DNA of 64,000 nucleotides from Spizellomyces punctatus DAOM BR117 (lineage: Eukaryota), in the NCBI GenBank assembly GCA_000182565.2, contig KQ257452.1. One strand, written 5' to 3'. How positions within the stretch are numbered: the stretch's first letter is position 1; the number at the start of each line of letters is the position of its first letter. Positions 1 to 17,700 of the stretch are shown one piece after another. Position numbers and translations under genes: made by a program. The notes beneath the pieces were generated by a model. The model made no database searches. It was not told where the DNA came from and saw nothing but the letters and a program-made list of their open reading frames with translations.

Positions 1-709
1 TGACTGCTTCTGGCTCATTTCTCCACATTTCTCCAATAATGACTGAGATATCCTTGTTGTTTGCGCCTGCGTGTTTCGCGAGGACCTCGTGCTGCTTTTC
101 CATGCGATCTGGTACACATCAATATGATAAGTAAGCGCGCATTCAGACGAATGCGTTTCAATACTTACACGTCATAAAGGAGTTTGCTGGGCGTGGTATT
201 CGTTTAGGAGCAGCAGGCTTGGGATTTGTGGACACAAGGTATGATGGAAAGCCATATTGTGTTGTCGGAAATGAGGTTACGGGGTGGGGTGCAGAAGGGA
301 CCATTACGGGGGTATACCCTTCCGGCACCAAAACGAGCTGCTGTCCGGCAGTACTGTATACGTGCCGTGCGGGTAAGACTTGAGGTGCTCCCGGCTGGGG
401 TACGAGAGGTCCTGGCTGTTGATACATTTGCATTGTGGGTAGCGTTTGCATCGGCGCTATGGACGCTGGGGCACCACCCGCCATATGACGCTGCACTTGT
501 GCCATCATCATTGGGTCGTTTATAGAGTACCCCGTCATTGGTGGAGTCTGCTGGTATACTACTGCAGGCGTTGGCTGAAGAGCGGGTTCAGAAGATCGCA
601 AGTAAGAATATGTGTTTGGGATGGTCACGAACGGCATAACTGCTCCGGCTGACCAAAATCGAAGGCGACTGTGGGAGATGGGTGTGTAATCAATTCGGTA
701 ATCTCGCAC
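1..709 (-). CDS. MATA-type HMG-box transcription factor (3' part runs off the window; 5' end uncertain)
   Basis: ORF 158-709 ends KRIPRPANSFMT. An intron (GTAAGT..CAG, about 109-168) joins it to YRMEKQHEVLAKHAGANNKDISVIIGEMWRNEPEAV, a typical HMG-box helix 1-2. The N-terminus is Pro/Gln-rich. A possible extra upstream exon lies near 777-880. Confidence 0.85.
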
Positions 710-2228
710 GCCAATGAGCAGTAATTAATTGAAAGGAGACAGGGAAGGAGTATGTGTTTAATCTGGTAAAATCTTACTGCGCTGCACTGCGCACGGCGTG
801 TCCGTCTTGCGTACTATGGAGCACGTCTCCTTTAATGCATCAAAGGCATTAACGGGGCTATGTCTTGCTTTTATGTTCATACCAGCGGATGTCTCACGCA
901 ATTGGTACTGATGGCATGGTAAACATTGTGATTTAGGGTAGGGGTCGGAAGACAACTGGGACAGCTGCTGCGCGGCGGAACTACCGAGGGCGCACTTACC
1001 TAATCACACTATTGTTCTGGAGCCACGGCCGTGTTCTGATACCTGGGTCTCCCAGCTGTCCCGAAAGCCGCAGTTGCGTCTGGGGAACTATGGTGCCCGT
1101 AACCGGAAACGTCAGTCGTTCCCCACGAGGAATATGCTGCTATACAAGTGATGGGCGTTGTCATCTCCTTGCATGCTTCTACCAAGAAATCGGAACCAAC
1201 GAGACTGAACACGAGGGATGTTTATGCCCTTCAATTGAATTGTGCTAGAAGAATGGTTCCAAAGGGGTCTTCAGGCGTCAACTCTGCAAAGGCAAAGAGG
1301 GTTCCGTTTGTCATTCACGAAAAAACCGGAGAGCGGGACGATTATGCTTTTTGAGCTGCAAAGTTCGATATCAAGGACTTAAGGACCACTTTGTTTTAAT
1401 GAACTGAAGGAGATCCAAAGACCTGGAATTCTTGTTCTACTTGTCGCTGTCGTGTTGGATAATCATATTAATCATATTCGCATTGGCCCCAGGGTCCAGG
1501 TTTCTGAACGTTCGGAGACGTCATGCATTCAGGCCGAGACATACTGACTGAAATTGGAAGCACCGGAGTTCATCCGGTTGGCGGTGTTTAACCCTGATAA
1601 GCAGTCGCTAATGCTTACGTGCATATCACCTAAAACGTATCAACGCGCAATACGGAACGCGATGGTAGCTTTCTCCTAAATCAGACAAGCAGGTCCAGCA
1701 CAAGGGTCACATATCTAGCTAGTTTGACAGACTTGTATCAGATATGCACATCTTGTCGCACCATTCATCCAAAATATAAAACCATTAGGCACAAATAAAT
1801 TAAGAAAAAAAAAGACATCAGGTCTACTGTCGGGGAAATGGATGTTTTCCGACAGTGGAGGAAGGCAGTGATTTGACATCCACGGCTATATCTGCTGGTA
1901 AGTCTTGACAAAAGACGAGATAAATTCCGAAAGTGGGAATGAGGTATAAAAGAAAGTGACAATACCAGTTTTGCCTGGGGGATATATCGCTTGCAATGAG
2001 ATGGTGAAAATAATTCAGACGCGCATCATAATATCAAATATCGCCCAAGTTGAAATCTTTCAGATCTAGCTTGCAATCCAATGTAAGACGTCGTGATAGA
2101 AGAGTATATTAGTCAGTGGGTGACCGTAATACCCGACAGGCAAAAAGGAAAATGCATCTTTATTTGAAGTCCGATCATAATCCTTCTTCGAGGAATATCT
2201 TGTCCTCATGCTTCGTGAGCACTGACAA

Positions 2229-5200
2229 GTGCAGGATATTCCCAGCATGGCCGAAGCTTCCCTTGCCGACAGAGGTCGTATGCAATCCATGACGTTTGCT
2301 CATAGTACGAATCAATCGACGGGTCCATTGAATAAACGAAGCCTTAGCTTGCCTTCCTTAAAATTGGGCAACGATGGTGGTCCAAAGGCAGGGACGAACA
2401 CATTACGTGTTTTGAAGACGAGAGGATGGGTTCCACTTATGATAGCAGCTTTGGAAGGGGAGGCGCCCAAAAAATCTGGGTCGGAGCCCACGCCAGGGCG
2501 ACTGGCTCAAAGCACTTATCCAGAGAGCGAGCTCTTATCAACCGGACACAGTCAACAAAACCTACCTAGCAAACGGCCTCCAGGTCGATCGAAGGTTACA
2601 GAATACGGTGCAGCTTTTTCAGCTAGGATTCCAGAAGTAAACAGCCCGGAAGATAGGTCAGCTGGAACTAAGGAATCTTCAAGGAAATCTAATTATGAGG
2701 CATCCACGAAGTACAGTTCATCGGCTCTGCAAAATCGATCTTCGCCGAGGGCATTTCAAGCTGCAGGTGAGCGATCCATGAACACCAGAGTCAGATCGGC
2801 ATCCTATTCGCAAGAAACCAGAAGCCAGCAGACGAGAGATTTTAATTCGGCACATTCGACGTCCCAAGCATCAGATATTAATTTTGGACAAGATGCAAAG
2901 AGTTTGGCAGATGCGATATCAAGAGGCGATGCGGGCAATACTCCTCAGCACGCAGCAATGATCGTTTCAGCTGCCAATCATCTCTTGGAAGCTGCAAACA
3001 AAGAGATACAGAGTAATAACGACCCACGATATCAAGCTGAGATGAAAAGATTGATAACTGAAGTTAAGCAAAGTAAGACAATTCGTTCAGGTTAGCATGG
3101 CAGATTGCCCAATTTAGTGATATATCCTGCAGTTCTTCCCGAGTTTCGTTCAAAGGCCTGGATATCGCTAGGATCGGGCAATGCACCTCCCTTAGAGACT
3201 GCTATGGAGGTCCTTGGTATACTTAATACAGTGACATCCAGGCTCACAGATCTTGGGAACTTCATGAAACACAATCCTAGTCAAAATCCTGCGAAGGATG
3301 TACGGCCTTCTTACGGCCAAGTGAATGAGTCTGTGTTGGATACTCGACGAAATTTGAAGCCAGAATCGCTTCATTTATCAGTATGTATGGCTTTCCTAAC
3401 TAGATTGGAATCTTGCAGCTGATTTATGGAATTGCTTATAGTCGCAGGAAAGCCAAGAAGCTACCCCGAATTTGAGTGCCAAAGGGCCGATAAAGCCCCA
3501 CTACCAATCATCTGAGATGCTGCATAAATTCTCAATCGCAAATCCCCCCAAATCAAGCTCCACGAAGGAGGAAGATTCACTGCACATGAGAAGATTATCT
3601 GAAATGGACAATAACGAATCGCCGTATGTATCTGCTCCTGAAATCCCGTTAGTAGACGAAACCTTGCAGGCGACAACGGTGGAAGCTGCAACGATGTTTG
3701 CAAAGCCTGAAAATAGATCCCAAAATCCGAAGCAGGTACGCGATGAGACTGTATATGCTCCTCTGGCAGGAATTTTAAGTTGTTTATCTAGGCAAGTTTA
3801 CCACCTACTACCTCCTCGGAATCTTCTTTTGCCAGCAAGAAACATGCCGTTTCTCCACTACAAGAAGCCACCACAAGAAATCCACTCCAGCAGGGCAACC
3901 CGAGCACCAGAAGGTCACATGCAAGACAACCTTCCGATGTCATGCAAGATATTCCAATAACTAAGAACTACCAACCTTGGATAAGAGAACCGACAGACAA
4001 GACACCCGGTTCTGCACACCAAAGTATCGCTTCCGGAAATACTGGAGTAGCTACAGATGTAGATAACGCTTGGGTTGAGGAAGTGCAACCCTTGCAAGAT
4101 TCTCTTGTATGGCGACCACAGACTGGATCGCTACCTAGCGATGGCGCGGTCGAAACCGGTGAGTTTTCAATGACGGGAAACACGAGTCCAGCAGAGAACA
4201 TCGGTGTGAACTCGCAGAATCAGCAAGTTCTAGTGAGGAACAGATTTCATTCCCCTCTGGATGAACCTTCAAGTATCGAAACCGAACCATTGATGGATGC
4301 TGGATTGCGACTACGGTCGCAAAGAAGGTTGGAATATAATAGCATCCTTCCTGATGCATCTACCAGCATTCAAACTGCGGGCATTGGGCAGATTCAACCA
4401 GATAGGGCCGCTCCATTCGACTCTCAAACTTCAACAAGCAACGCACATATAAAAATGAAGTCTCAAGCAGAAGCAGCACCATTAATTCCGTACAACCGTA
4501 CCTCCAAAGTATCCGGCGCGGCAATAGCTGGGACAGACACCGTTGCAGAAGCTATTGGAAAAATTCCCAACCCACCTGTTAACAGCGGACCTATTTTTGT
4601 GGTCAACTGGGCTCCGGGAGGAGACCTCCCATCCGCACAAGATGTGTCCGCGGAACAGGGAACAGTCGCAATTCGCCCCCAGCAGCATGTAGCAAAATTA
4701 GCAGCAGAGCAGTCAGAATTGGTAAAGCCATCAAAAGCCAAGCATATCACGGAGGATTTCGGTACAACACCGGCTGCAGAGTCTAGTCTGGCAGGCGGAG
4801 AGGTAGTTCCACAGGCAGCCGTGTCAGGAGGGAGCAATACCGTTATCGTAAAAAACAACCCTGTGGATGCCCAAGCACCAGTGGTTCAGCAGAATTTGCA
4901 TTCTCAACAGCAAAATGAAACAGAAGGTGAATCGGCTACCGTTGAAGTTTACGATGTTTATGGCACTCGAAAACGACTTCGATTTTGTCCCTGGATATCT
5001 TGGCGAAGCGACGGTGGTGGGGGAAGCCGAAGGCGAAATCGCAGCGGACCTTGTGCGGCCTGCTGCTCCTGCAGAACCCTTTGTAAGGGAGTGTGTGGAA
5101 CATTGTTATTAGGGTTCTTGGTCCTGCTTTTCTTGACGAATCTAGTGATTCTGAACGTCTCCGTGGTTCGAGATACCATTAATATGAAGAGCGCCCTGGC

Positions 5201-8200
5201 GAATATCGTTATTCCACCGGATGGTGGATCTACAACTATCCGGACCTCGTCCACCACCACCCGAAGCTCTTCTGCCGCGGTCTCAATTACATTATCAAGT
5301 ATGTTACCCAGCGATATTCCAATTATCAGCGCGCACCTATCAGAGAGCACGACCATTTCTTCCACCAGTTCCCTTACTAGTTCCATGTCTTGGACCTCGT
5401 CGAACATAATTTTGAGCACTTCTTCTATTTCTTCGCCGTTGAGTCTTACAGAAACCGCTTCCACGTCGCTCTCTGGAAGCCAGTCATCAACCTGGAGTGC
5501 AGTGGCAAGCACAAGCACAACTTCGAGTACTACCTTATCAAGTTTTTCGCAGTCAAGCTCGAATGTGGTAGCCAGCTCAAGCTTGTTGTCAACCTTCGAC
5601 TCATCTACAAGTATGCTGAGCGCCACGACATCACAGAGTGCCTCTGACTTTTCAACCAGTCCATCCTCTTCCGGTTCAACTCAACAGTCAACTATGTCAT
5701 CAAGTCAATCTCTGGCTTCTGAAATATCCAGCGTATCTACGTCTACGTCTGGGTTGACAACACCTTCCACATCATCCAGTGCAATTCAGACGTCGTACAC
5801 GGGGTGGAGCCAAACATCAAGTAGCATGCCGCTTCCGAGCTCGAGTGTGTCGTCATCTCAAACTGCGGGCGGATCATCCACCTCTAGCAGTGCGTCCGCT
5901 AGCGGATCGTTACCCCCCACGTCAAGCTTTAGTATGTCCTCAAGCGATGTCTCCTCGAGTACCACAACGATGTCCAGTAGTACTTCCAATTATGTCCTCA
6001 GCTCCAGCATAATGTCGTCGTACAGTGAGGCAAGCATGACATCCAGCAGCTCAATAACTGACTCCATAACCGTCACACGAATATCAAGCAGTGAAACAGC
6101 TAGCTCAAGCGAATCATTCAGTAGTAGCGTGCCTACCTCTACTGATATATTGAGCTACACACAGACATCTAGCGCTTCTCAGACGCCGCGAAATAGTGTC
6201 ACCGAGACGCCTACCCCCACGCCCACTTCGAGCGAGGTAGTCAGCTCTGAATCCGTATCCGGGACAGTAACCTCCAGCACCACGTCTAGCCTATCATCAA
6301 CTCAAGCACCTACCTCCAGCGCGACATTTAATTTGACATCGCAAGCATCTATCTCTACGGAATATCCAACTGAATCTTCAACTGGAGTAAGTATAGTGAG
6401 CGAAACACTGACCTCGAGTGACGTGGCTTCCTCAACCACGACCTCGATATCGAGCGAAAGGTCTTCCTCGTCACGCGGAGCGTCAACATCAAGCATGGAG
6501 TCTTCGTCAGCAAGCACACAGTCTTCCTCATCGAGTGTAGCGCCTACTTCAAGCATAGAGACGTCGTCAGCAAGCGTAATCTCTTCCTCATCAAGTGTAG
6601 CACCAACATCAAGCACAGCGCCGTCATCAGCAAGCGTAATCACTTCCTCATCAAGCGTAGCACCAACATCAAGCCTAGCGCCGACATCAAGCATAGAGTC
6701 TTCCTCATCGAGTGCCGTGCCGACATCAAGTATAGGGACTTCTTCATCGACCGTGGAGCCTTCGTCATCAAGCCTAGCGCCGACATCAAGCATAGAGTCT
6801 TCCTCATCGAGTGCCGTGCCGACATCAAGTATAGGGACTTCTTCATCGACTGTGGGACCTTCGTCATCAAGCGTAACGCCGACATCAAGTGTAGAGCCTT
6901 TGTCAGCAAGCGTAGAGTCTTCCTCATCAAGTGTAACACCAACATCAAGCATAGAATCGTCATCAGCAAGCATAGTGTCTTCCTCATCAAGTGTAACGCC
7001 AACTTCAAGCATCGAGCCCTCTTCATCAACCATGGAGCCTTCGTCATCAAGCGTAACGCCTACATCAAGCATAGAGCCGTCGTCAGCAACCGTGGAGTCC
7101 TCATCCAGCGTAGAGCCTACCTCGAGCGTCCAGCTTACATCGATGCAAGAATCGTCATCGTCATCTCTGCTTCAAACACCGACGTCGAGTATGGAACCTA
7201 CATCGAGCGAAGAGTCTTCGTCATCAAGCGATATGCCCACCTCAAGTATAGAGCCTACCTCGAGCGAGCAGCCTTCATCATCAAGCGATACGCCCACCTC
7301 AAGCGTGAGCGTAGAGCCTACCACAAGCATAGAAATCTCATCATCAAGCGGAACACCGACGTCGAGCATGCAATTCACGTCAAGCGAGGAGTCTTCCTCG
7401 TCAAGTGAGGCGCCGACATCAAGCGCTGCATCCACGTCGAGCGAGACCTCAATTTCATCAAGCGAAGGAGTATCTTCTACCGAATTCAGCCAAACGCTTT
7501 CCTCAAGCACACTAAGCGAGACACCAACATCGAGTGAATCAGCTACCGTAACCTCCAGTGAAAACTATAGTTCCAGCGCTCAATCATCATCAGCGTCGCC
7601 CACTCCAACAGCTTCACCTTTACTTCGTATCTGGCCGTATCAAAGCAAGCAAATCGGCGACCCATTAGATGCAACGGAACTGTCCCAGCGGGCGTCGTGC
7701 GAGAACGCACGGACATCGGCTACCACTCCGAATGATTTCCTCACCAACTCTTGCGGCGGCTGTCTTCAGGACATTGGAATTTTGACGGCAGAAGTCCTCA
7801 ACTTCTGTGTTATGGGTCTTTTCAACCAGGACAGTGGGCCTTTCACAGGCTGGATGTCAACCACGAATGTCTGCCAAGGATGGGACCTCACAGGCGGTGG
7901 AATTGCCCACATTACCTGTAGTGGTCCAAATGTTACCGGGCTGTAAGTGTTATAGTTTACATGACGATCTATCCATTTTTCTGTGGAAAAATGGGGGCCA
8001 TGATGACTTGACCACCCTAATTTCCTTTGCAGATCGATTACAAGTGACTTAGTGAACGGGATGCCTTCATATATGGGCAAGCTTCTATCGCTTGAGACGC
8101 TGTAAGTGAACAAAAAAGCATGTATTTTTGCGACTACAGTACATTGAGGATCTTACAAGTGAAGTTCACGATGTGTAGGGAAGTCAGCAGGTTAGGAAAT

Positions 8201-8950
8201 GTCGACTCGTCTGCTCCGTTTGCCGCGGAATTTTGGCAATTGCCCCATTTACAAGATGTGTATGTTTTGTGGCAGTCAGGTTTGCACATCAAGTACTCTT
8301 TCTGAAATTCACCCACTTGCGTTTTGTATCCAGAACCATTAGCGAAGGTATCTGGGACATCACCTTCCCAGCAAACGTCACTTCTTTAAAGAGACTGTTA
8401 GTAGTTTTTGAAGACAGTGTCACTAGCTATTATATTACTAACAAAGTATGTTGCCTCTCCGTCACAGTGTTATCAGAAACATGGATATCGTAACATCATC
8501 TCTACAAAACTTGGCTACCGCGCCATTGGAGAGAATGTAAGTCGTTCGGCCCCGGGTCACCGAAAAGGACAAAATAATTAACAACCACCCTTTCACAACA
8601 GTACCTTCATTGTGGTGGATCTAAGCGGACTCGGAACGATACCGTCTTGGATTGGTGGCAGTCAGACTTGGTCCCAAACTCTCCAGTCCCTGCAATTCGA
8701 GTACACTGGATTGGGAGGTGCAATTCCAACGAACCTGCAAAATCTTGCCTCGCTGACGGTTATGTAAGACTTCATTGCTTTTAGAGTTCCAGTCAACCAG
8801 GCCTGATGATTTGCTTTTTGTAGCTCACTCGCACACAACTCCCTTACGGGATCTATTCCTGCACCAGTCTGCAGCTTAAGTCTGTCAGTCTGCGACATGA
8901 GATCTAACCCAAGCTTGGTCAGAGGAACGTGCGCAAAATGTCTAGATTGA
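2229..8950 (+). CDS. ~2,000-aa type II single-pass membrane protein: long disordered N-terminus, Cys-rich juxtamembrane segment, TM helix, Ser/Thr mucin stalk, C-terminal LRR domain
   Basis: ORFs 2229, 3105, 3472 and 3942 join in frame through introns 3091-3132, 3381-3441 and ~3736-3790. The basic/Cys segment RRRNRSGPCAACCSCRTLCKGVC precedes the hydrophobic TLLLGFLVLLFLTNLVILNV, followed by ~800 aa of S/T-rich sequence. Six small exons (8033-8950) encode LRRs, e.g. LQSLQFEYTGLGGAIPTNLQNLASL and SLAHNSLTGSIP. Stop TGA at 8948-8950. The true start may lie upstream (CAG acceptor at ~2234). Confidence 0.8.
6480..7430 (+). repeat. Intragenic coding tandem repeats of the mucin stalk (~60-nt units plus a near-identical 99-nt duplication)
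   Basis: Recurrent SSSV(A/T)PTSS(I/V)E motifs. CATCAAGCCTAGCGCCGACATCAAGCATAGAGTC... occurs at ~6667 and ~6766 (99-nt period). Confidence 0.9.
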
Positions 8951-9018
8951 TGCCTTTTCTCGTCTTAATCAATTAAATGACAAAAAAAAAAATTAAATAT
9001 CCGGATGAGGCTCTCCAA

Positions 9019-9801
9019 TTAAATATCGTGGAAATCATGTATGGAGTGCCTGGCCCGTAAGCCTTTGGCGTTGATGAGCAGCCATTCCTTCAAATCATTC
9101 TTCACGCTCGTGTTCCGTGATCCAGACTTTTTCGTGATCGCCGATGACCCAGGCAAGGACTGCGGGTAAATGTATGGCACCAGGAGCGGCATTTGCATGT
9201 TTTCTGTAAGGAGAATGAGCTATATGATAGAATCGTTGGTTGAAAGAAAAGGTATGAGCTGAAGGAGCAACATCAAGATTATAGCACACAGTCTTTACAT
9301 GAACATAGAGGAAACCTGATCGCATCGGATATGTGATGGCTTCAGACACCATGATCTGAAAACGACCGGGATGAATTAGTCGCAAATCTGCCAAGACATG
9401 TAGTAAACAATATCCGTGCCTGTTTGATTCGCTTCTCGAGGTCAAATCCGGTATCGATCTCAACTCGGTTGATGAGAAGTGGAGGGTTATGGTCTTCTTG
9501 CCTCACGATTCCATAGTTCTTGACCTAACACCCAGTCCGTCAAGTTCGACCACAAACTAATCTGAAAGCATTTTCTACCGGCAGAATTAATGGCTGGACA
9601 CCTGCTAATTTCAGGCGAGCCTGGCAAGACTTGTTGGATATAATTCTTCAGGTGGTGACCACTGCGTGAACGTACTGCTTCTTCTTTCACCCGCTCCTGG
9701 AGCCACGCTTTTGCCTCCACATCCAACTCAATGTCATCGTCCTGGACACTATTCTCTCCTTCGTCCAACAAAGTATGGACTCTGCTGTTGTGATCTGCCA
9801 T
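9019..9801 (-). CDS. Hypothetical small multi-exon protein
   Basis: ATG at 9801 gives MADHNSRVHTLLDEGE...AWLQERVKEEAVRSRS. Downstream intron-like segments lead to a last exon reading ENMQMPLLVPYIYP...LKEWLLINAKGLRARHSIHDFHDI*. Splice choices are ambiguous. Confidence 0.45.
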
Positions 9802-9973
9802 AGGTTCTTGCTGTATCACTGTCTCATCGCGATTGGGGCTTATGGCTACAGCCACGTGATACGATCGGGTAAACTTACAAGCATCGCAATGTCAAGTTAT
9901 AAAGCTCCCCATCTCAGTGACATCCCTCGCTTGTAAAACCCTCCCAGCTCTGAAGTATCGTACCTCATTCACT

Positions 9974-11280
9974 ATGAGTGCTCCTGATTTGTCTCTCAAG
10001 ACCCTATTTGATGTCAAGGGCAAAGTTGCTCTGGTTACCGGTGGTGGAACAGGAATTGGCAAGAGTGAGTTGTATTAAAATCGGTGCCTTTATACAGCGT
10101 ATTCTCGCTTACAGTTGTTTATTTATACCGCTCTATAGTGATTGCCGCTGCGTTGGTACAAAATGGTGCAAGAGGTGAGCTGCAAATTTGTCAGGCTGTG
10201 GTGTGGTCTGCATTGGTCTAATATGTTGTATAGTGTACATTGCGTCGCGAAAGAAGCAAGTTGTGGATGAGACCGCAAAAGAACTCACTGAAATGGGCCC
10301 GGGTGAATGCATTGCACTCGTAGCGGACCTGGGTACCAAAGCGCAGGCGCATGCTCTTGCGGACCAAATCAAGCAACGCGAGTCAAAACTGCATATTCTG
10401 GTCAATAATGCCGGTATGGCTTGGGGCAGTAATTTGGAGGACTTTGACGAAAAGAACGGATGGGATAGGTTAATGGCTTTAAACGTGAAAAGTGTCTTTT
10501 ATGTAACTACTGCGTAAGTATACATTGGATCCCGGACAGTTGGCGTTTTGGTAATCAACACTCAAATACACCCTTCTAGGTTACTGCCACTTCTTGAGAA
10601 GGGATCTGATGGCAACTTGAGTCCTGCCAGAGTGATCAACATCAGGTGACTGATTGTGACTGATTCATCGTGTATTTTACGTGGTGTAACCTAAAGATTC
10701 TGCCAACCTTCAGCTCTGTCGCTGGCACGGCGGGTTCAGCAGAAGACAAGTTGTCTGCACCAGGCAATGGCACATGGTCTTGTACGTAATGCAGATCCGC
10801 CTGTTCAGTTGAAAGCTAGCTTTGAAGCTAATGATTTTACCTAGATGCTACATCGAAGGCGGCGGTGAATCACTTGACTCGTGTTCTGGCACTCCCTCTA
10901 GCCCGGTATGCGACAGAATCTGTTTTTTACGTTGTGATTTCATTATCCTGATTGACAACAACAGCCGAAACATCCTTGTGAATGCGATTGCTCCGGGGGT
11001 GTTCCCTTCCCGTATGACGAAATTCGGTATTGAGCATGGAATCAGCACTATGGAGAAGCAACAACCTCTCGGTAGGTGGCTGTTCTATTCCGAAAAAGCA
11101 TGCAAAATAATATCCAACTCAACCCTTAATTGATCGTTTGCAGGCCGTATTGGCACAACCGAAGATATGGCTGGATTGGCACTCTTCTTATGCAGTCGTT
11201 CTTCGGCGCATATTACCGGTACCGTCATTCCTATCGATGGTGGGGCGACTATCTCCCTCAATGCCTACGCTAAGTTGTAA
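9974..11280 (+). CDS. Classical short-chain dehydrogenase/reductase (RhlG/gluconate 5-dehydrogenase-like)
   Basis: LFDVKGKVALVTGGGTGIG (TGxxxGxG), ILVNNAG, catalytic YATSKAAV, VNAIAPGVFPSRMT and IPIDGG motifs across spliced exons. C-terminal AKL could be a PTS1. Confidence 0.93.
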
Positions 11281-11562
11281 AAATATAAACCTGGGAATTG
11301 ATGTGCGCATGGATTCTAGAGTTAGTATGGCGATTTTGCCGGAGTTGGGCTATTGATGTCTGAGCCCTAACTATGAAGAAGCACAAGTGTTACCGCTGGG
11401 GACTGTCCATACACCCTTATTTTGGCCAAAAGCAGCATCTTTGTTGAGAAGTTACCATGAAATTATTTCAGTTCCTTTTTTCCAGTTAACTCGTTCCATA
11501 AAAATCATTCTCATTCTGTCAGTCGCCACACATGCTGACGCTCACTCACAAGAAGGCTTAGT

Positions 11563-11985
11563 CGCGTGTCAGGTTACCAGACCACGTGAGGCCGCTGATC
11601 GGCCTTGAACTTCTACGAGATGGTCAACCACGGAGTTCATGTGGATATTCCGCTACATTGACTTCGTAATTTTTTGAACATGCATTACCAGATTCTCGTG
11701 AACAAAGAGCGTGGGCTTCCAGTTCGAAGTACACGTAGAAACTTCGCGTAATTATGGATCACATTTCCTGTGGTTAAGATGATCCAAAAACAGGTTGTCA
11801 TTCTCGGATATGCCCAGAGAGACAGTCCTTTTCCAGTCTCACTGTATACCTCGAGTGCAACGTGTACTCTCGGTGGATTCCTCCGGCTCCGCCTACTAAT
11901 GTGTCTTGTCCTATTTTCGGCCTTTGGGGTGGTGCGCGTAAGCGGGTGTTACGGGCCGATCGCGCGTTTTGTCCGATCCCCGCGC
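11563..11985. promoter_or_regulatory. Cluster of CGCG-core (MCB/SCB/E2F-like) motifs upstream of the Whi5/Nrm1-like gene
   Basis: CGCGT at ~11563, 11745, 11935 and 11963 (including TTCGCGTA and CGCGCGTTTT), plus CGCGC at 11981, all within ~530 bp of ATG 12090. Confidence 0.45.
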
Positions 11986-12089
11986 ACCGGTATTCAAAAT
12001 ACCGCATCAACGCCAGCGAATCTTTCGTACTAATACTCATTTTACTTTTTGCACGTTCTTCTCTTATTTCTCTCTATCTTAAATCTTAA

Positions 12090-14766: not shown

Positions 14767-17700
14767 ATGGAGACCGTACGCGCCTTCGTAGAGGCAATGG
14801 AAGGCACAAGTAGGTGAAGTGCCGTGTGAAGAGCATACAGGCGAGAACTTTCTATTTTCAGGATATAGTGAGCTAATACCGTTCTATACCAGACATAGAT
14901 CGGAAACTGCAAACTTTAGAGGAGCTTCTCCAAGAGTTTTCGACCATCAGTGTTGCATCCATAGAGGTGAGTGTACTGTACGTGCCCTTTTATAGTCCGA
15001 ATTCGTGCTGTCCACTGTCGAATGTGTTGCTCACATATGAAATATTGATTCGGAAGCCCGACTTGTATGAGAATTTCCTGGATGCGGTTGTGCGTTGCAT
15101 AAAGTCCCCCCAGCTGAAATTGTGTCAACAAGCTCTCAGCTTCCTGCCCGTCCTGTCGGTGTCGACAGATGCTCGTTCTCATAATTCCGCTTCACATTTG
15201 AGAACTATAGTTGTCTTTGCAGCCCCGGTCGTTGTCGAAAGGCTTGCAGATGGCAAAGAGAAAATAAGAGAACTTGCGCAAGCAGCGATTATTGAACTCT
15301 ATCGGATTGTTTGCCGTAGTGTCGCTCATAGCGCGAGCAAAGATTCCAATAAAGAAGGCGGACCGTACGCACAGATGCTGATATTTTTAGACCGAGAAAT
15401 GAAGACAAATGGATTTGGCCACAAAACTCCACGCGGACGAGAACAGGTCATTTCGCTTGCTGAAGTGCCAAATTCCAAAGAATTAGCCCACTTAAAAATA
15501 TATCATAGGCGGTCATATGGTTGGTCCAGTGCGTTCGAGCGGTGCCAGAATTTCCCGTAAAGCAGTATATTCCTCTGCTTGTGAGACTACTGGAGGATTC
15601 GAATGAAAGTGTCAGAAACACAAGCAAGGAGGCCGTAATCGCCGTGTATAAGTATGTATACATTGGCATCCGATGAGGTTCTCTATCTGATTATCTAACG
15701 TAGATTTAAACTGCTGCTACAGTAACACGACCATAAAAGCCATGCGAACCGACATAAAAAAAGAGCTCGTCAAAAATAAAATACGTCAATCGATTGTGGA
15801 TCATATCTTAGCCAACTTTATCGACGGACAGGCCGAGAGTCCCGCAGACACCGTCCCTGATCGGTCAGAGTCGACTTTGTCCGGAACCACCTCTGCCGCA
15901 CTAGGAAACGGGGCTCCAAGACGGGAAACAGGAGCGGTGTCCCCACCAAATAATCTCGCGGGGGGAACATCCGCACCTGATCCCGATCCGATAAATGTAC
16001 CTGATGCTACAGTTTTTGACAAGCATGTTATTACAATATTAATTCCCTATCTTGTAACGCTAGATCGGGTCCAGCAAAGAACTGGAGATGGAGATATCTG
16101 CAATCTGTGTTCTTTTCGAGGGCAAGGAGACTGAGGAAAACTGGAAAGCTCGGGAGGATGCATTGCAGCGCTTGCGCGGCATTTGCCGCGGCACCGCGCG
16201 TCACATTGATGGCTTCATCAATTACATACGACCAGCCACGGAACCAATCACACGAACGGTTTGTTTCAATTGATTCGTTCGGATTACTTCGGAAACGTCA
16301 TCCTCATACAGGTGTTCCATTTGAATATAGATGCACAGTTTGCGTACTGCTTTAGTGATGACGACTTGCACCACCGTAGTCGATATGGTAAACATCCTGG
16401 GCTGCCAGCTAGATCCATTGGTTGACGCGTTCATAGTCAACTTGCTCAAGTTGAGCGGGCAAGCGAAGAAGGTCGTTGCAACCGCAAGTATAAGCGCTAT
16501 CCAGATCCTTCTCCAACGAACTTCGTATCAGCTTAAATTTGTCCAATATTTCCAAATGGCGCTTAGTGATAAGAGTGCAGGTACCCGGAGTGCCGCTGCC
16601 CTCTTTATTAAAACTGTTGTAGAAGTGATGGGATCTTCTGACACCGGCCGGTCGACATTGGAGACAAGCGGTGGACTCGACATTGTAGAGAAAGGCTTGA
16701 AAAAGGGCTTGGCGGATGCAAATGGGCCCGTGCGCCAAACTTGCCGTGAGACGTTTAGCAATTTTCAGAGCGCCTGGCCAGAGCGAGCGGAAATGTGAGC
16801 ATACTTGCCCTCTTTGCGCTAAGGATCAAGGAGCTTGCAGCTGACTTGCAATTTTAGTTTGTTCGATACACTCGATGCCGCCACCCGCAAAGCTATCTCT
16901 CGGGCGAAGTTGTCCTCTGCCCCTGCCAAGATCCGCCCATCGATACGGGCTGTTGCCGCAACTCGATCGGCATTTTCAAACCCAGCCAATGACTCACCCG
17001 CACTTTCGGAAGGAACCGTAGAAGGGATCAACTTCGCTATTGAACCACAGGAGTCTGATCCATTACCAAATGGCCTCAGTTTGGAGGATGGGATTCATTC
17101 TGTCGGGGAACTGCGCGCCGCCACGCCCAAAACTGAAGATCCACAAGACAACAGAGGTATTATTCTGCAGCAACTAATGCATGAGAATGTGGATGAGCAA
17201 GTTCGGGGCTATTGTGCATTAGCAACGCTAGCTCGTCAACATAGCGAACGCGGCATCTCTCTCGAGATGGAGCCCGAGTTCAATCTGGCCATACGCTCAG
17301 CGATTGGACATCTTTTGGAGAAGGGCTCTGAGGACATATCGAGTACGCTGCTGGATGCGGAGTATTTGGCCCCTTTGATAGACAGTAGAATCATTGCGAT
17401 CTCTGAACTGCTCATTCCGATTCTGGCCTCTGCTGGCAGTGGAAATCCAGGGCGCCAGAGTGCGGGCCGGGGAGCCCTTGAATTTGTCAAGGGCAGGTTG
17501 GGTTTTGTGGCCCTCTTGGATATGGTTGTACGGTTCTTGACGAAACCTTCAGAAGCAGATCCATGTCCAGGTGGAGCACAAACGCAGCGTTTAGCCCGAT
17601 GGGGTGCTGCAGAATGGATAGAAAGCACCAATATCGGTACAGAACCGATTCATGGAGAAGTTGCTGCCTACTTTGCGGATCCTAGCAACTGTCAATTACT

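What the first reader, a model, noticed from the sequence alone, without database searches (positions are those of the whole stretch)
2229..8950. Giant inverted (type II) mucin-stalk LRR receptor-like protein with a plant-type LRR cap
Seen: ~900 aa of largely disordered sequence with no obvious signal peptide in the part I can assemble, then a basic Cys-rich segment (RRRNRSGPCAACCSCRTLCKGVC) directly before one TM helix. After it come ~800 aa of Ser/Thr stalk, a Cys-containing cap (WMSTTNVCQGW...ITCSGPNVTGL) and about seven LRRs ending in LGGAIP and NSLTGSIP. Known: the C.W...C...V..L cap and LxxNxLxGxIP are hallmarks of plant extracellular LRR receptors; fungal signalling mucins (Msb2, Hkr1, Wsc1) are type I and lack LRRs. 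Inference: N-in/C-out topology (positive-inside rule), possible palmitoylation, and an LRR head held above the cell surface on a glycosylated stalk. This is a candidate host, substrate or self-recognition sensor of a class I do not know to be characterised in fungi.
Basis: partly seen in the sequence, partly recalled or inferred. Interest (0 to 1): 0.75.

Follow-up and report, generated by a model that had tools for sequence, protein, structure and literature searches.

The report
Chytrid membrane protein: mucin stalk, LRR head
A soil chytrid fungus appears to encode one very large membrane protein that holds a plant-like leucine-rich-repeat binding head outside the cell on a long sugar-coated stalk. 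Public annotation splits the gene in two, and this design has not been described in fungi.

Summary
The window is Spizellomyces punctatus DAOM BR117. A 10-exon + strand model runs from ATG 2247 to TGA 8948-8950 and gives 2029 aa. Its parts are 891 aa without a signal peptide, a basic and Cys-rich juxtamembrane cluster, one TM helix (892-915), an ~810-aa Ser/Thr stalk, a 6-Cys cap, about 7 LRRs and a 4-Cys C-cap.

NCBI splits it into SPPG_01988 (1284 aa) and SPPG_01990 (493 aa). Three results favour one gene:
- Exon 4 is one open frame, 3792-7942.
- The S. 'palustris' model reads 83 aa past the annotated stop.
- The Phlyctochytrium arcticum relative is a single protein with the same order of parts.

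RNA confirmed only the last intron, so transcript continuity is unproven.

The head is an LRR solenoid closest to plant LRR-kinase ectodomains. It passes no Pfam cut-off and gives no LRRNT_2 hit. N-in/C-out topology is inferred, not shown.

A cytoplasmic four-helix bundle resembling FAT, vinculin and talin bundles is a new but weak lead.

Verdict: new variant of a known kind; function untested.

The parts
2247..3072 (+). Exon 1, from start codon ATG 2247 (residues 1-276, ends in phase 1). In-frame TGA at 2223-2225 upstream.
   Evidence: Identical to the N-terminus of SPPG_01988 (P0152) and 97% identical over the first 40 aa to S. 'palustris' P0153.
3133..3380 (+). Exon 2 (residues 276-358), after the 60-nt intron 3073-3132.
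   Evidence: The junction is reproduced in P0152.
3442..3735 (+). Exon 3 (residues 359-456), after the 61-nt intron 3381-3441.
   Evidence: The junction is reproduced in P0152.
3792..7942 (+). Exon 4 (residues 457-1840), after the 56-nt intron 3736-3791. One uninterrupted frame holding the pre-TM region, TM helix, whole stalk and Cys cap.
   Evidence: ORF 3792-7946, 1384 codons.
2871..3272 (+). Cytoplasmic four-helix bundle (residues 209-322; coding sequence interrupted by intron 3073-3132).
   Evidence: AF2 model: mean pLDDT 66.9, four long helices. VIA-align: vinculin Z 13.7, alpha-catenin M 13.4, p130Cas 12.6, FAK/Pyk2 FAT 10.2-10.8. Atlas GIT1_C clusters score 0.77-0.82. No Pfam hit. A lead only.
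4548..5096 (+). Conserved pre-TM block (residues 709-891). It ends in the basic, Cys-rich juxtamembrane cluster (residues 867-891 = 5022-5096).
   Evidence: The blastp segment 709-928, which includes the TM helix, is 33% identical over 233 columns to P. arcticum P0041, E 5e-12. Alignment A1. Charge and Cys counts.
5097..5168 (+). The single transmembrane helix (residues 892-915).
   Evidence: The only hydrophobic window above KD 1.5 in 2029 aa. Conserved in P0041 and P0153.
5202..7634 (+). Ser/Thr-rich stalk (residues 927-1737; 43% Ser, 16% Thr, no Cys). It spans the gap between the two public gene models (6267-7031).
   Evidence: Colinear with P0153 to residue 1364.
6453..7350 (+). Tandem repeats inside the stalk (periods 60, 99, 57, 21, 18 nt).
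   Evidence: all 11 rows have periods divisible by 3. No independent DNA contig bridged 6666-6914 (table 8).
7635..7942 (+). Cap region before the LRRs (residues 1738-1840): a helical part with 4 Cys, then the W..C..W...C..V motif with 2 Cys.
   Evidence: Part of the 41%-identical head segment shared with P0041, where the four Cys of the helical part and one motif Cys are invariant across all three sequences of A2. PEPR1 cap-end alignment. Model helices have pLDDT about 57-64.
8033..8101 (+). Exon 5, LRR 1.
   Evidence: Matches P0001.
8179..8259 (+). Exon 6, LRR 2.
   Evidence: Matches P0001.
8334..8396 (+). Exon 7, LRR 3.
   Evidence: Matches P0001.
8468..8536 (+). Exon 8, LRR 4.
   Evidence: Matches P0001.
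8602..8763 (+). Exon 9, LRRs 5 and 6.
   Evidence: Weak LRR_1 hit.
8824..8950 (+). Exon 10: LRR 7, the 4-Cys C-terminal cap and stop codon TGA 8948-8950.
   Evidence: Intron 8764-8823 is confirmed by 5 RNA reads (table 5).
8992..9002 (+). Probable 3' end of the + strand transcript.
   Evidence: 6 of 12 + strand molecules end at 9002, and there is a loose A-rich tail at 8992. A genomic A-run lies just upstream, so internal priming is not excluded.

Best explanation
Window 2247-8950 (+) is one 10-exon gene of Spizellomyces punctatus. It encodes a 2029-aa single-pass membrane glycoprotein in type II orientation, N-terminus in the cytoplasm and C-terminus outside.

Proposed working:
- The lone hydrophobic helix (892-915) acts as a signal-anchor.
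- The 891-aa N-terminal region stays cytoplasmic. A run of Cys next to the helix probably holds it at the membrane through S-acylation.
- About 810 aa of Ser/Thr-rich chain are O-glycosylated into a stiff rod. At roughly 0.25 nm per residue (a recalled figure) this is on the order of 200 nm, long enough to cross the chitin wall of cyst or sporangium.
- At its tip the rod presents a disulfide-capped head of about 7 LRRs that binds a ligand still unknown, on a substrate, another cell or in solution.
- Binding or pulling on the head is passed to the cytoplasmic side. There the conserved juxtamembrane block and a four-helix bundle would recruit partners.

I read it as a surface adhesion or sensing receptor.

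Shown here: the sequence architecture, its conservation in two more chytrid species, the LRR nature of the head and the last intron.

Inferred: one transcript, the topology, acylation, glycosylation, wall-spanning and any signalling.
For: Gene unity:
- Exon 4 is a single 1384-codon frame. It contains both the end of SPPG_01988 and the start of SPPG_01990.
- SPPG_01988 leaves the frame only through a 53-nt GTAACC..CCAG 'intron', shorter than the nine others (56-90 nt) and with a donor unlike theirs.
- The S. 'palustris' model P0153 reads through that spot. It stays colinear to residue 1364, with 80.8% identity over 1370 columns.
- P. arcticum KAI9106049.1 (P0041, 1219 aa) is one protein with the same order of parts. 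Its pre-TM/TM block is 33% identical (E 5e-12) and its head 41% identical over 263 columns (E 1e-48).

Topology:
- No hydrophobic N-terminus.
- An in-frame stop lies 8 codons upstream.
- None of 37 possible upstream ATG-exon/splice combinations encodes a hydrophobic stretch; the highest 10-aa KD is 1.41.
- The 25-aa flanks carry +6/0 on the N side and +3/-2 on the C side.
- All 10 Cys after the helix lie in the two LRR caps.

Head:
- phmmer gave 25,626 hits at E <= 1e-3 and 245 at E <= 1e-30. The five named among the ten I looked up are LRR proteins or the chytrid relative.
- 13 of 13 PDB sequence hits are plant LRR receptor-kinase ectodomains.
- The AF2 model shows 9 strands spaced 21-30 aa.
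- VIA-align gave MIK2 Z 14.7 (rmsd 4.0, 192 aligned) and PXY Z 14.3. Of the 50 rows, 49 are proteins I recognise as LRR proteins.

RNA:
- Intron 8764-8823 has 5 spliced reads.
Against: RNA does not show continuity. In the one RNA run (about 6% of it read, 60-nt reads, strongly 3'-biased), + strand depth is 0 in four of the six bins from 6378 to 8003. It is at most 0.46 anywhere upstream of 8546 within the gene.

Seven + strand molecules all end at 6231, about 100 nt before the annotated SPPG_01988 stop. This could mark a real shorter transcript.

The public annotation of this genome has two proteins.

No independent DNA contig bridges 6666-6914 in the repeats, so repeat number, and in principle the frame, rest on the reference assembly alone.

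The head model is of low confidence (mean pLDDT 56.9, three sequences). No Pfam LRR family reaches its cut-off and LRRNT_2 is not hit.

The four-helix bundle is absent from the P. arcticum model, which has only about 100 aa before the conserved block. Its fold matches lie in the range that helical bundles reach by geometry alone.

Relatives were found in only three species. No topology predictor, glycosylation evidence or localisation evidence was available.
Confidence: 0.62

Rival explanations
1. The public annotation is right and there are two (or three) separate genes. SPPG_01988 would give a TM protein with a short Ser/Thr stub that ends after a 53-nt intron. SPPG_01990 would give a soluble Ser-rich LRR protein starting at the internal Met at 7032.
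For: NCBI models P0152 and P0001. Seven + strand RNA molecules end at 6231, near the annotated end of SPPG_01988, and no + reads lie in 6378-7461.
Against: The frame is open from 3792 to 7942, so the split needs an atypical 53-nt intron. The 18 residues encoded across that 'intron' are identical in S. 'palustris', whose model reads on. SPPG_01990 alone would have no signal peptide or TM yet carries 10 Cys in LRR caps. P. arcticum has everything in one protein. RNA depth is too low for absence to mean anything.
Confidence: 0.17
2. One gene and the same topology, but not a signalling receptor. It would be a structural adhesin or wall-tethering glycoprotein in the manner of plant LRR-extensins, and the long cytoplasmic part would serve only trafficking or anchoring.
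For: There is no kinase, TIR or other catalytic domain anywhere. The best Foldseek match of the head is an entry I recall as a plant LRX complex (6qxp, E 7.6e-4). The stalk dominates the protein.
Against: An 891-aa cytoplasmic region with a block conserved between genera and a folded helical domain is more than an anchor needs. This rival differs from the main reading only in what follows binding.
Confidence: 0.15
3. Opposite topology: the Ser/Thr region and LRRs are cytoplasmic and the N-terminal 891 aa are outside.
For: No topology predictor was run. Some LRR proteins are cytoplasmic, and SDS22 and SHOC2 are among the fold matches.
Against: No signal peptide is present to export 891 aa. The charge bias points the other way. 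Paired Cys occur only in the LRR caps, and the N-terminal 854 aa have none. The sequence neighbours of the head are extracellular plant ectodomains.
Confidence: 0.04

Closest known systems
Plant LRR receptor kinases and receptor-like proteins (ectodomains of PEPR1, MIK2, PXY, ERL1, PSKR1)
   Same: Extracellular LRR solenoid with Cys-bearing caps at both ends. The last repeats are of the LxxNxLxGxIP type. These are the only PDB sequence hits (13 of 13) and the top structural matches.
   Different: The plant proteins are type I with a signal peptide, have 20 or more LRRs next to the membrane, and carry a kinase or a short tail inside. Here there are about 7 LRRs at the C-terminus, an 810-aa stalk, reversed orientation and no kinase. 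LRRNT_2 is not detected.
Fungal signalling mucins and wall-stress sensors (Msb2, Hkr1, Wsc1, Mid2; properties recalled, not tested here)
   Same: Single-pass membrane protein whose outer part is a long Ser/Thr-rich, presumably O-mannosylated rod.
   Different: Those are type I, have a short C-terminal cytoplasmic tail and have no LRR head. This protein is reversed and has an 891-aa cytoplasmic part.
Plant LRR-extensins (LRX; identity of PDB 6qxp recalled)
   Same: An LRR head joined to a long, heavily glycosylated stalk. Best Foldseek match of the head model (E 7.6e-4, TM 0.35).
   Different: LRX proteins are secreted, have the LRR at the N-terminus, have a Hyp-rich extensin stalk fixed in the wall and have no TM helix.
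Fungal secreted plant-like LRR proteins (sLRR, ZtLRR; bioRxiv 10.1101/2025.08.22.671746, passages and section 18 read)
   Same: Plant-like LRR domains in fungi, including one chytrid example (Globomyces pollinis-pini).
   Different: Those are small soluble effectors made of one LRR domain. Homology to this head was not tested because no sequence was available here.
Teneurins (animal type II receptors; recalled)
   Same: Type II orientation with a large N-terminal cytoplasmic domain and a large C-terminal ectodomain.
   Different: Unrelated domains. This is an analogy of layout only.
FAT, GIT1_C, vinculin, alpha-catenin and talin-rod four-helix bundles
   Same: Residues 209-322 model as an up-down four-helix bundle. 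It superposes on these at Z 10.2-13.7 and rmsd 2.0-3.2. The Atlas's nearest clusters carry GIT1_C.
   Different: No Pfam hit at E <= 1. No PDB sequence hit better than E 0.26. Foldseek's best is E 0.11. Sequence identity is 6-14%.

Membership tests
Leucine-rich repeat superfamily | Tandem LxxLxLxxN-type repeats detectable by sequence | tested here: met
   phmmer: 245 proteins at E <= 1e-30. 13 of 13 PDB hits are LRR ectodomains. Seven repeats of 21-30 aa were read directly.
Leucine-rich repeat superfamily | A Pfam LRR family at or above its gathering score | tested here: not met
   LRR_14 22.3 bits against a cut-off of 40, LRR_1 19.1 against 20.6, LRR_4 19.2 against 27, LRR_R13L1-DRL21 16.7 against 27, LRR_8 15.3 against 27.
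Leucine-rich repeat superfamily | Curved solenoid fold | tested here: inconclusive
   The model has mean pLDDT of only 56.9. Even so, all listed Foldseek matches and 49 of 50 VIA rows are proteins I recognise as LRR proteins, the best at Z 14.7.
Plant-type LRR N-terminal cap (Pfam LRRNT_2) | Match to the LRRNT_2 profile | tested here: not met
   No LRRNT_2 row at E <= 10 for P0001 or P0002. Only motif-level alignment to the end of the PEPR1 cap, and superposition on the N-terminal parts of MIK2, PXY and ERL1.
LRR receptor kinase | Cytoplasmic protein kinase domain | tested here: not met
   No Pfam family at all on P0152 or on the exon pieces.
Fungal signalling mucin (Msb2/Hkr1 type) | Long Ser/Thr-rich extracellular region plus one TM helix | tested here: met
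   Stalk 927-1737 with 59% Ser+Thr, and a single helix at 892-915.
Fungal signalling mucin (Msb2/Hkr1 type) | N-terminal signal peptide, type I orientation, short C-terminal tail | tested here: not met
   No hydrophobic N-terminus or upstream exon. The stalk lies C-terminal to the helix.
Type II (signal-anchor) membrane protein | No cleavable signal peptide, one internal TM helix, more positive charge on the N-terminal flank | tested here: met
   This is a sequence criterion only.
Type II (signal-anchor) membrane protein | C-terminus experimentally outside the cell | not testable with these tools
   Needs tagging or protease protection.
FAT / GIT1_C four-helix bundle | Match to the GIT1_C or FAT profile | tested here: not met
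   No Pfam hit on P0152 at E <= 1. Atlas scores of 0.77-0.82 fall below the tool's 0.9 lead threshold.
FAT / GIT1_C four-helix bundle | Four-helix up-down bundle fold | tested here: inconclusive
   pLDDT 66.9. Z 10.2-13.7 to FAT, vinculin, catenin and talin bundles, in the range common for helical bundles.
FAT / GIT1_C four-helix bundle | Binding of LD motifs or other adhesion-scaffold partners | not testable with these tools

The most novel reading that the evidence does not exclude
This protein is the missing membrane anchor of the chytrid adhesion machinery. [quoted passage not shown] On this reading the LRR head grips the substrate from the tip of a wall-spanning mucin rod. The cytoplasmic FAT/vinculin-like four-helix bundle couples it to those scaffold proteins and to actin. 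That would make it a non-integrin, type II, LRR-based adhesion receptor.
Probability: 0.1. Interest if true: 0.85.

Novelty: new variant of a known kind. Interest (0 to 1): 0.55.

Why it matters
A survey of 101 eukaryotic genomes concluded that LRR-plus-one-TM receptors are almost absent from Fungi, with five left after curation, one of them in a chytrid (PMC2939053, passages read). A protein like this one would be missed by such a survey for two reasons. Its LRRs fall below Pfam cut-offs, and its public gene model separates the TM helix from the LRRs.

If the merged model holds, chytrids have a cell-surface LRR protein of unusual build: reversed orientation, a mucin rod and a very large cytoplasmic part.

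Three consequences follow. It gives a concrete candidate for how wall-bearing zoosporic fungi touch or sense substrates. It shows that two public gene models in a reference chytrid genome probably need merging. It also offers a testable candidate for the integrin-less adhesion problem in early fungi.

Tried and rejected
- Whole-genome paralogue search: no genome is held for this window.
- First word-based search with the cap among proteins of 760-2421 aa: no hit. The annotated proteins are shorter.
- RNA holders: no holder listed as RNA. One raw-read RNA run with the same species label was laid and gave very low depth. X1-X3 are low-coverage DNA contigs that include the introns.
- Metagenome scan with the head alignment: 87 pattern matches and 1 tblastn-confirmed locus (L001). 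On inspection this is a small, terminally redundant, virus-like contig sharing an 8-residue word by chance, so I rejected it.
- Pfam on all N-terminal pieces, P0152, P0153 and P0041: nothing meaningful.
- PDB sequence search with the bundle: best E 0.26, alkyl hydroperoxide reductase, rejected.
- Foldseek with the bundle: nothing at E <= 0.001.
- tRNA scan of 1-12000, looking for what might carry the locus tag between the two models: none. What SPPG_01989 is remains unknown to me.
- The - strand ORF 6302-7171 inside the stalk: only a sub-threshold Pfam hit. I treat it as a by-product of the Ser-codon repeats.
- Bacterial origin of the head by transfer was considered, because the top phmmer rows are giant bacterial LRR proteins. 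Those scores are sums over 10-41 repeat matches to the two or three plant-like repeats. The head is also split by six phase-2 introns. I do not favour transfer, but I did not test it with a tree.
Full report
**Identity of the window.** A search with the 114-aa cap region returned a 100% match to 'uncharacterized protein SPPG_01990 [Spizellomyces punctatus DAOM BR117]' (P0001, 493 aa). It also returned an 88% match to a 210-aa fragment from Spizellomyces sp. 'palustris' (P0002). The window is therefore chytrid nuclear DNA. Neighbouring frames carry eukaryotic families: NPR3, PPR, prolyl oligopeptidase and zf-CCHC, plus weak INTS1 and CEP104 hits.

**The observation.**
- Stop-to-stop frames on the + strand are 2226-3095, 3096-3422, 3442-3960 and a 1384-codon frame 3792-7946.
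- Reading the DNA and scanning splice signals gives nine GT..AG introns of 56-90 nt.
- The resulting model has exons 2247-3072, 3133-3380, 3442-3735, 3792-7942, 8033-8101, 8179-8259, 8334-8396, 8468-8536, 8602-8763 and 8824-8950.
- It is 6090 nt long, has a single terminal stop and encodes 2029 aa.
- P0001 is exactly its last 493 residues.
- The first 1281 of the 1284 residues of SPPG_01988 (P0152) are exactly its first 1281 residues, across all three 5' introns. So none of my splice junctions is mine alone.
- All six introns in the LRR part are phase 2 and fall at the same point of successive repeats. Each exon holds one LRR, except exon 9, which holds two.

**Anatomy.**
- Residues 1-891: no hydrophobic stretch, and no Cys before residue 855.
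- Residues 867-891: 6 Arg/Lys, 0 Asp/Glu, 6 Cys.
- Residues 892-915: the only hydrophobic segment in the protein (KD 2.57).
- Residues 927-1737: 43% Ser, 16% Thr, no Cys, with tandem repeats whose periods in all 11 rows are multiples of 3.
- Residues 1738-1840: a cap region with 6 Cys.
- After that, seven repeats of 21-30 aa, the last two fitting LxxNxLxGxIP, then a 4-Cys tail.
- From base composition, the 469 non-repetitive codons before the helix would stay open by chance with P about 8e-11.

**One gene or two?** The public annotation splits the long exon.
- SPPG_01988 leaves the frame at 6267 through a 53-nt GTAACC..CCAG intron and stops three codons later, at 6329-6331.
- SPPG_01990 starts at an internal Met at 7032.
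- The 255 codons between them belong to neither model.

Against the split:
- The frame is open throughout.
- The 53-nt intron is shorter than all nine others, and its donor is unlike theirs.
- The S. 'palustris' model P0153 reads straight through it. It stays colinear with my model to residue 1364, at 80.8% identity over 1370 columns, until its contig ends.
- Phlyctochytrium arcticum KAI9106049.1 (P0041, 1219 aa) is annotated as one protein with the same order: non-hydrophobic N-terminus, conserved pre-TM block, Cys/basic cluster, TM helix, about 650 aa of Ser/Thr, then cap and LRRs. NCBI taxonomy places this species in Chytridiales.
- Against my model, P0041's head is 41% identical over 263 columns (E 1e-48). 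Its pre-TM/TM block is 33% identical over 233 columns (E 5e-12).

For the split, or at least not against it:
- The RNA run gave 321 laid reads of 60 nt from about 6% of the run, with a steep 3' bias.
- Only the 8763>8824 junction reached the reporting threshold (5 reads).
- Within the gene, + strand depth upstream of 8546 never exceeds 0.46 and is 0 in most bins.
- Seven + strand molecules all end at 6231, close to the annotated end of SPPG_01988.
- The three other runs are low-coverage DNA. Their contigs leave 3454-4440 and 6666-6914 uncovered, so the repeat core is not independently bridged.

I put one gene at roughly four to one over the split.

**Topology.**
- The annotated N-terminus is shared by both Spizellomyces models and is not hydrophobic.
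- An in-frame TGA lies 8 codons upstream.
- I tried every ATG, GT donor and AG acceptor combination in 1500-2246 that stays in frame. That gave 37 combinations, and none encodes a signal-peptide-like stretch (maximum 10-aa KD 1.41).
- The upstream + strand transcript appears to end at 1822 (12 of 14 molecules). That leaves about 425 nt for a promoter and 5' UTR.
- The charge bias (+6/0 against +3/-2 over 25 aa), and Cys confined to the LRR caps on the C-terminal side, fit N-in/C-out.
- No topology predictor was available, so this remains an inference.

**The head.**
- Pfam finds five LRR families, all below their cut-offs, and no LRRNT_2.
- An exhaustive phmmer search with residues 1733-2029 gave 25,626 hits at E <= 1e-3.
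- Of the 150 hits listed, 148 are giant proteins matched in 10-41 separate stretches, mostly to query positions 200-285, the plant-like repeats. Only P0002 and P0041 match in one long stretch.
- I looked up ten hits. P0041 is the chytrid protein. Four are LRR, Ig-like or T9SS-sorted proteins of Gracilimonas, Aquimarina (two) and Draconibacterium. Five carry no name.
- A profile of the three chytrid heads hits 13 PDB sequences, all plant LRR receptor-kinase ectodomains (PEPR1 at E 4e-8, MIK2, BRL2, TMK3, SRF6, PSKR1). The '...ITC...V..L' end of the cap aligns to the end of PEPR1's own N-terminal cap.
- The AF2 model from three sequences is of low confidence (mean pLDDT 56.9, with 65-84 in the middle repeats). 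It still shows 9 strands at LRR spacing.
- Foldseek lists only LRR proteins, the best being 6qxp at E 7.6e-4 and TM 0.35.
- VIA-align puts the N-terminal parts of MIK2 (Z 14.7, rmsd 4.0, 192 aligned), PXY (Z 14.3) and ERL1 (Z 13.5) on top. Of the 50 rows, 49 are proteins I recognise as LRR proteins. I did not check the identity of the remaining one, 6zxd_k.

So the head is an LRR domain of the plant-like class. Membership of the LRRNT_2 cap family was tested and not met.

**The cytoplasmic side.**
- Identity between the two Spizellomyces species is fairly even, 0.68-0.97 per 40 aa, with peaks at 1-40, 201-240, 721-760 and 841-920.
- The ESM Atlas's nearest clusters carry GIT1_C, both for residues 1-460 (score 0.77) and for 200-345 (0.80-0.82). 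By the tool's own calibration these scores are leads only.
- Residues 209-358 model with mean pLDDT 66.9 as four long helices.
- Foldseek finds nothing at E <= 0.001; its best is talin R3 at E 0.11.
- VIA-align against 48,161 chains ranks sponge vinculin (Z 13.7), alpha-catenin M domains (13.4, 13.3), vinculin tail (13.1), p130Cas (12.6), talin rod domains, TLNRD1, and Pyk2 and FAK FAT (10.8, 10.2) at the top.
- The tool warns that helical bundles reach about Z 13 by geometry alone.
- Pfam and PDB sequence searches are negative.
- The P. arcticum model has no such region.
- I report this bundle as a new, weak lead.

**Comparison with the literature.**
- Soanes and Talbot (PMC2939053; passages read) defined LRR receptors as Pfam-LRR plus one TM helix. 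They found five credible fungal cases, one in Batrachochytrium dendrobatidis. S. punctatus does not occur in that text.
- A 2025 preprint (10.1101/2025.08.22.671746; passages and section 18 read) describes small secreted plant-like LRR proteins across fungi, including one chytrid.
- A 2026 paper (PMC13618815; passages read) reports LRR-RLK orthogroups shared among chytrids.
- Calkins and Youssef (PMC5042518; passages read) state that early-diverging fungal lineages (S. punctatus is among the genomes they compare) lack integrin but keep the focal-adhesion scaffold proteins. They raise the idea of an unidentified integrin substitute.
- Daskalov 2023 (PMC10197012; passages read) mentions LRRs only in NLRs.
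- Searches for the three locus tags, for Chytridiomycota + mucin + leucine-rich, and for type II + LRR + early-diverging fungi + transmembrane found nothing.
- Supplementary tables of these papers were not opened. Table S3 and S4 of PMC2939053 may name the B. dendrobatidis protein, which could be a relative.

**Verdict.** The most likely account is a type II, single-pass, mucin-stalked LRR surface protein of chytrids acting in adhesion or sensing. It is mis-split in the public annotation. It is a new variant built from known modules. Function, topology and transcript unity still need bench work.

Noticed in passing
window 7943-8823: All six introns of the LRR region are phase 2 and interrupt the same position of successive repeats. 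The result is one LRR per exon (69, 81, 63, 69 nt), with two in the 162-nt exon. This argues for an old eukaryotic exon-repeat structure and against recent transfer from bacteria.
   Followed up: partly
window 6267-6331: The public model SPPG_01988 ends through a 53-nt GTAACC..CCAG intron that shifts the frame into a stop. The S. 'palustris' model reads through the same place, with 18 of 18 identical residues across it.
   Followed up: yes
window 6231: Seven + strand RNA molecules all end at 6231 (depth beside them 7). No A-run follows and no GT donor is present. This could be a transcript end, copies of one fragment, or clipped reads.
   Followed up: no
window 3668-3938: RNA reads whose first mate lies on the - strand reach depth 3.19 here, with none on +. 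In this library the first mate seems to read the sense strand, judging by the two spliced junctions. That suggests an antisense transcript over the exon 3/exon 4 junction.
   Followed up: no
window 8802-9362: A convergent - strand gene has an intron at 9220-9298 (CT..AC, 4 reads) and a weak Peptidase_C15 hit at 9098-9502. Its transcripts run to about 8802, so they overlap the last exon and 3' UTR of the LRR gene.
   Followed up: partly
window 6302-7171 (- strand): A 289-codon Asp/Glu/Gly-rich open frame lies antisense to the stalk repeats. It is probably a by-product of Ser-codon repeats and may be what separates the two public models.
   Followed up: partly
P0002 (S. 'palustris', 210 aa), C-terminal about 35 aa: The tail of this public model matches a read-through of the last intron in a wrong frame. 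In S. punctatus, RNA reads confirm that this intron is spliced.
   Followed up: partly
L001 1-2521: This metagenome contig was pulled in by an 8-residue word. It is terminally redundant and AT-rich (38% GC), and it encodes an Arg-rich N-terminus typical of small circular DNA virus capsids. It is unrelated to the finding.
   Followed up: partly
window 10179-10514: A short-chain dehydrogenase exon (adh_short, E 2.3e-17) lies downstream on the + strand.
   Followed up: no
window 14877-15557: Weak, sub-threshold hits to the Integrator subunit 1 R4 domain and a CEP104-like TOG domain.
   Followed up: no
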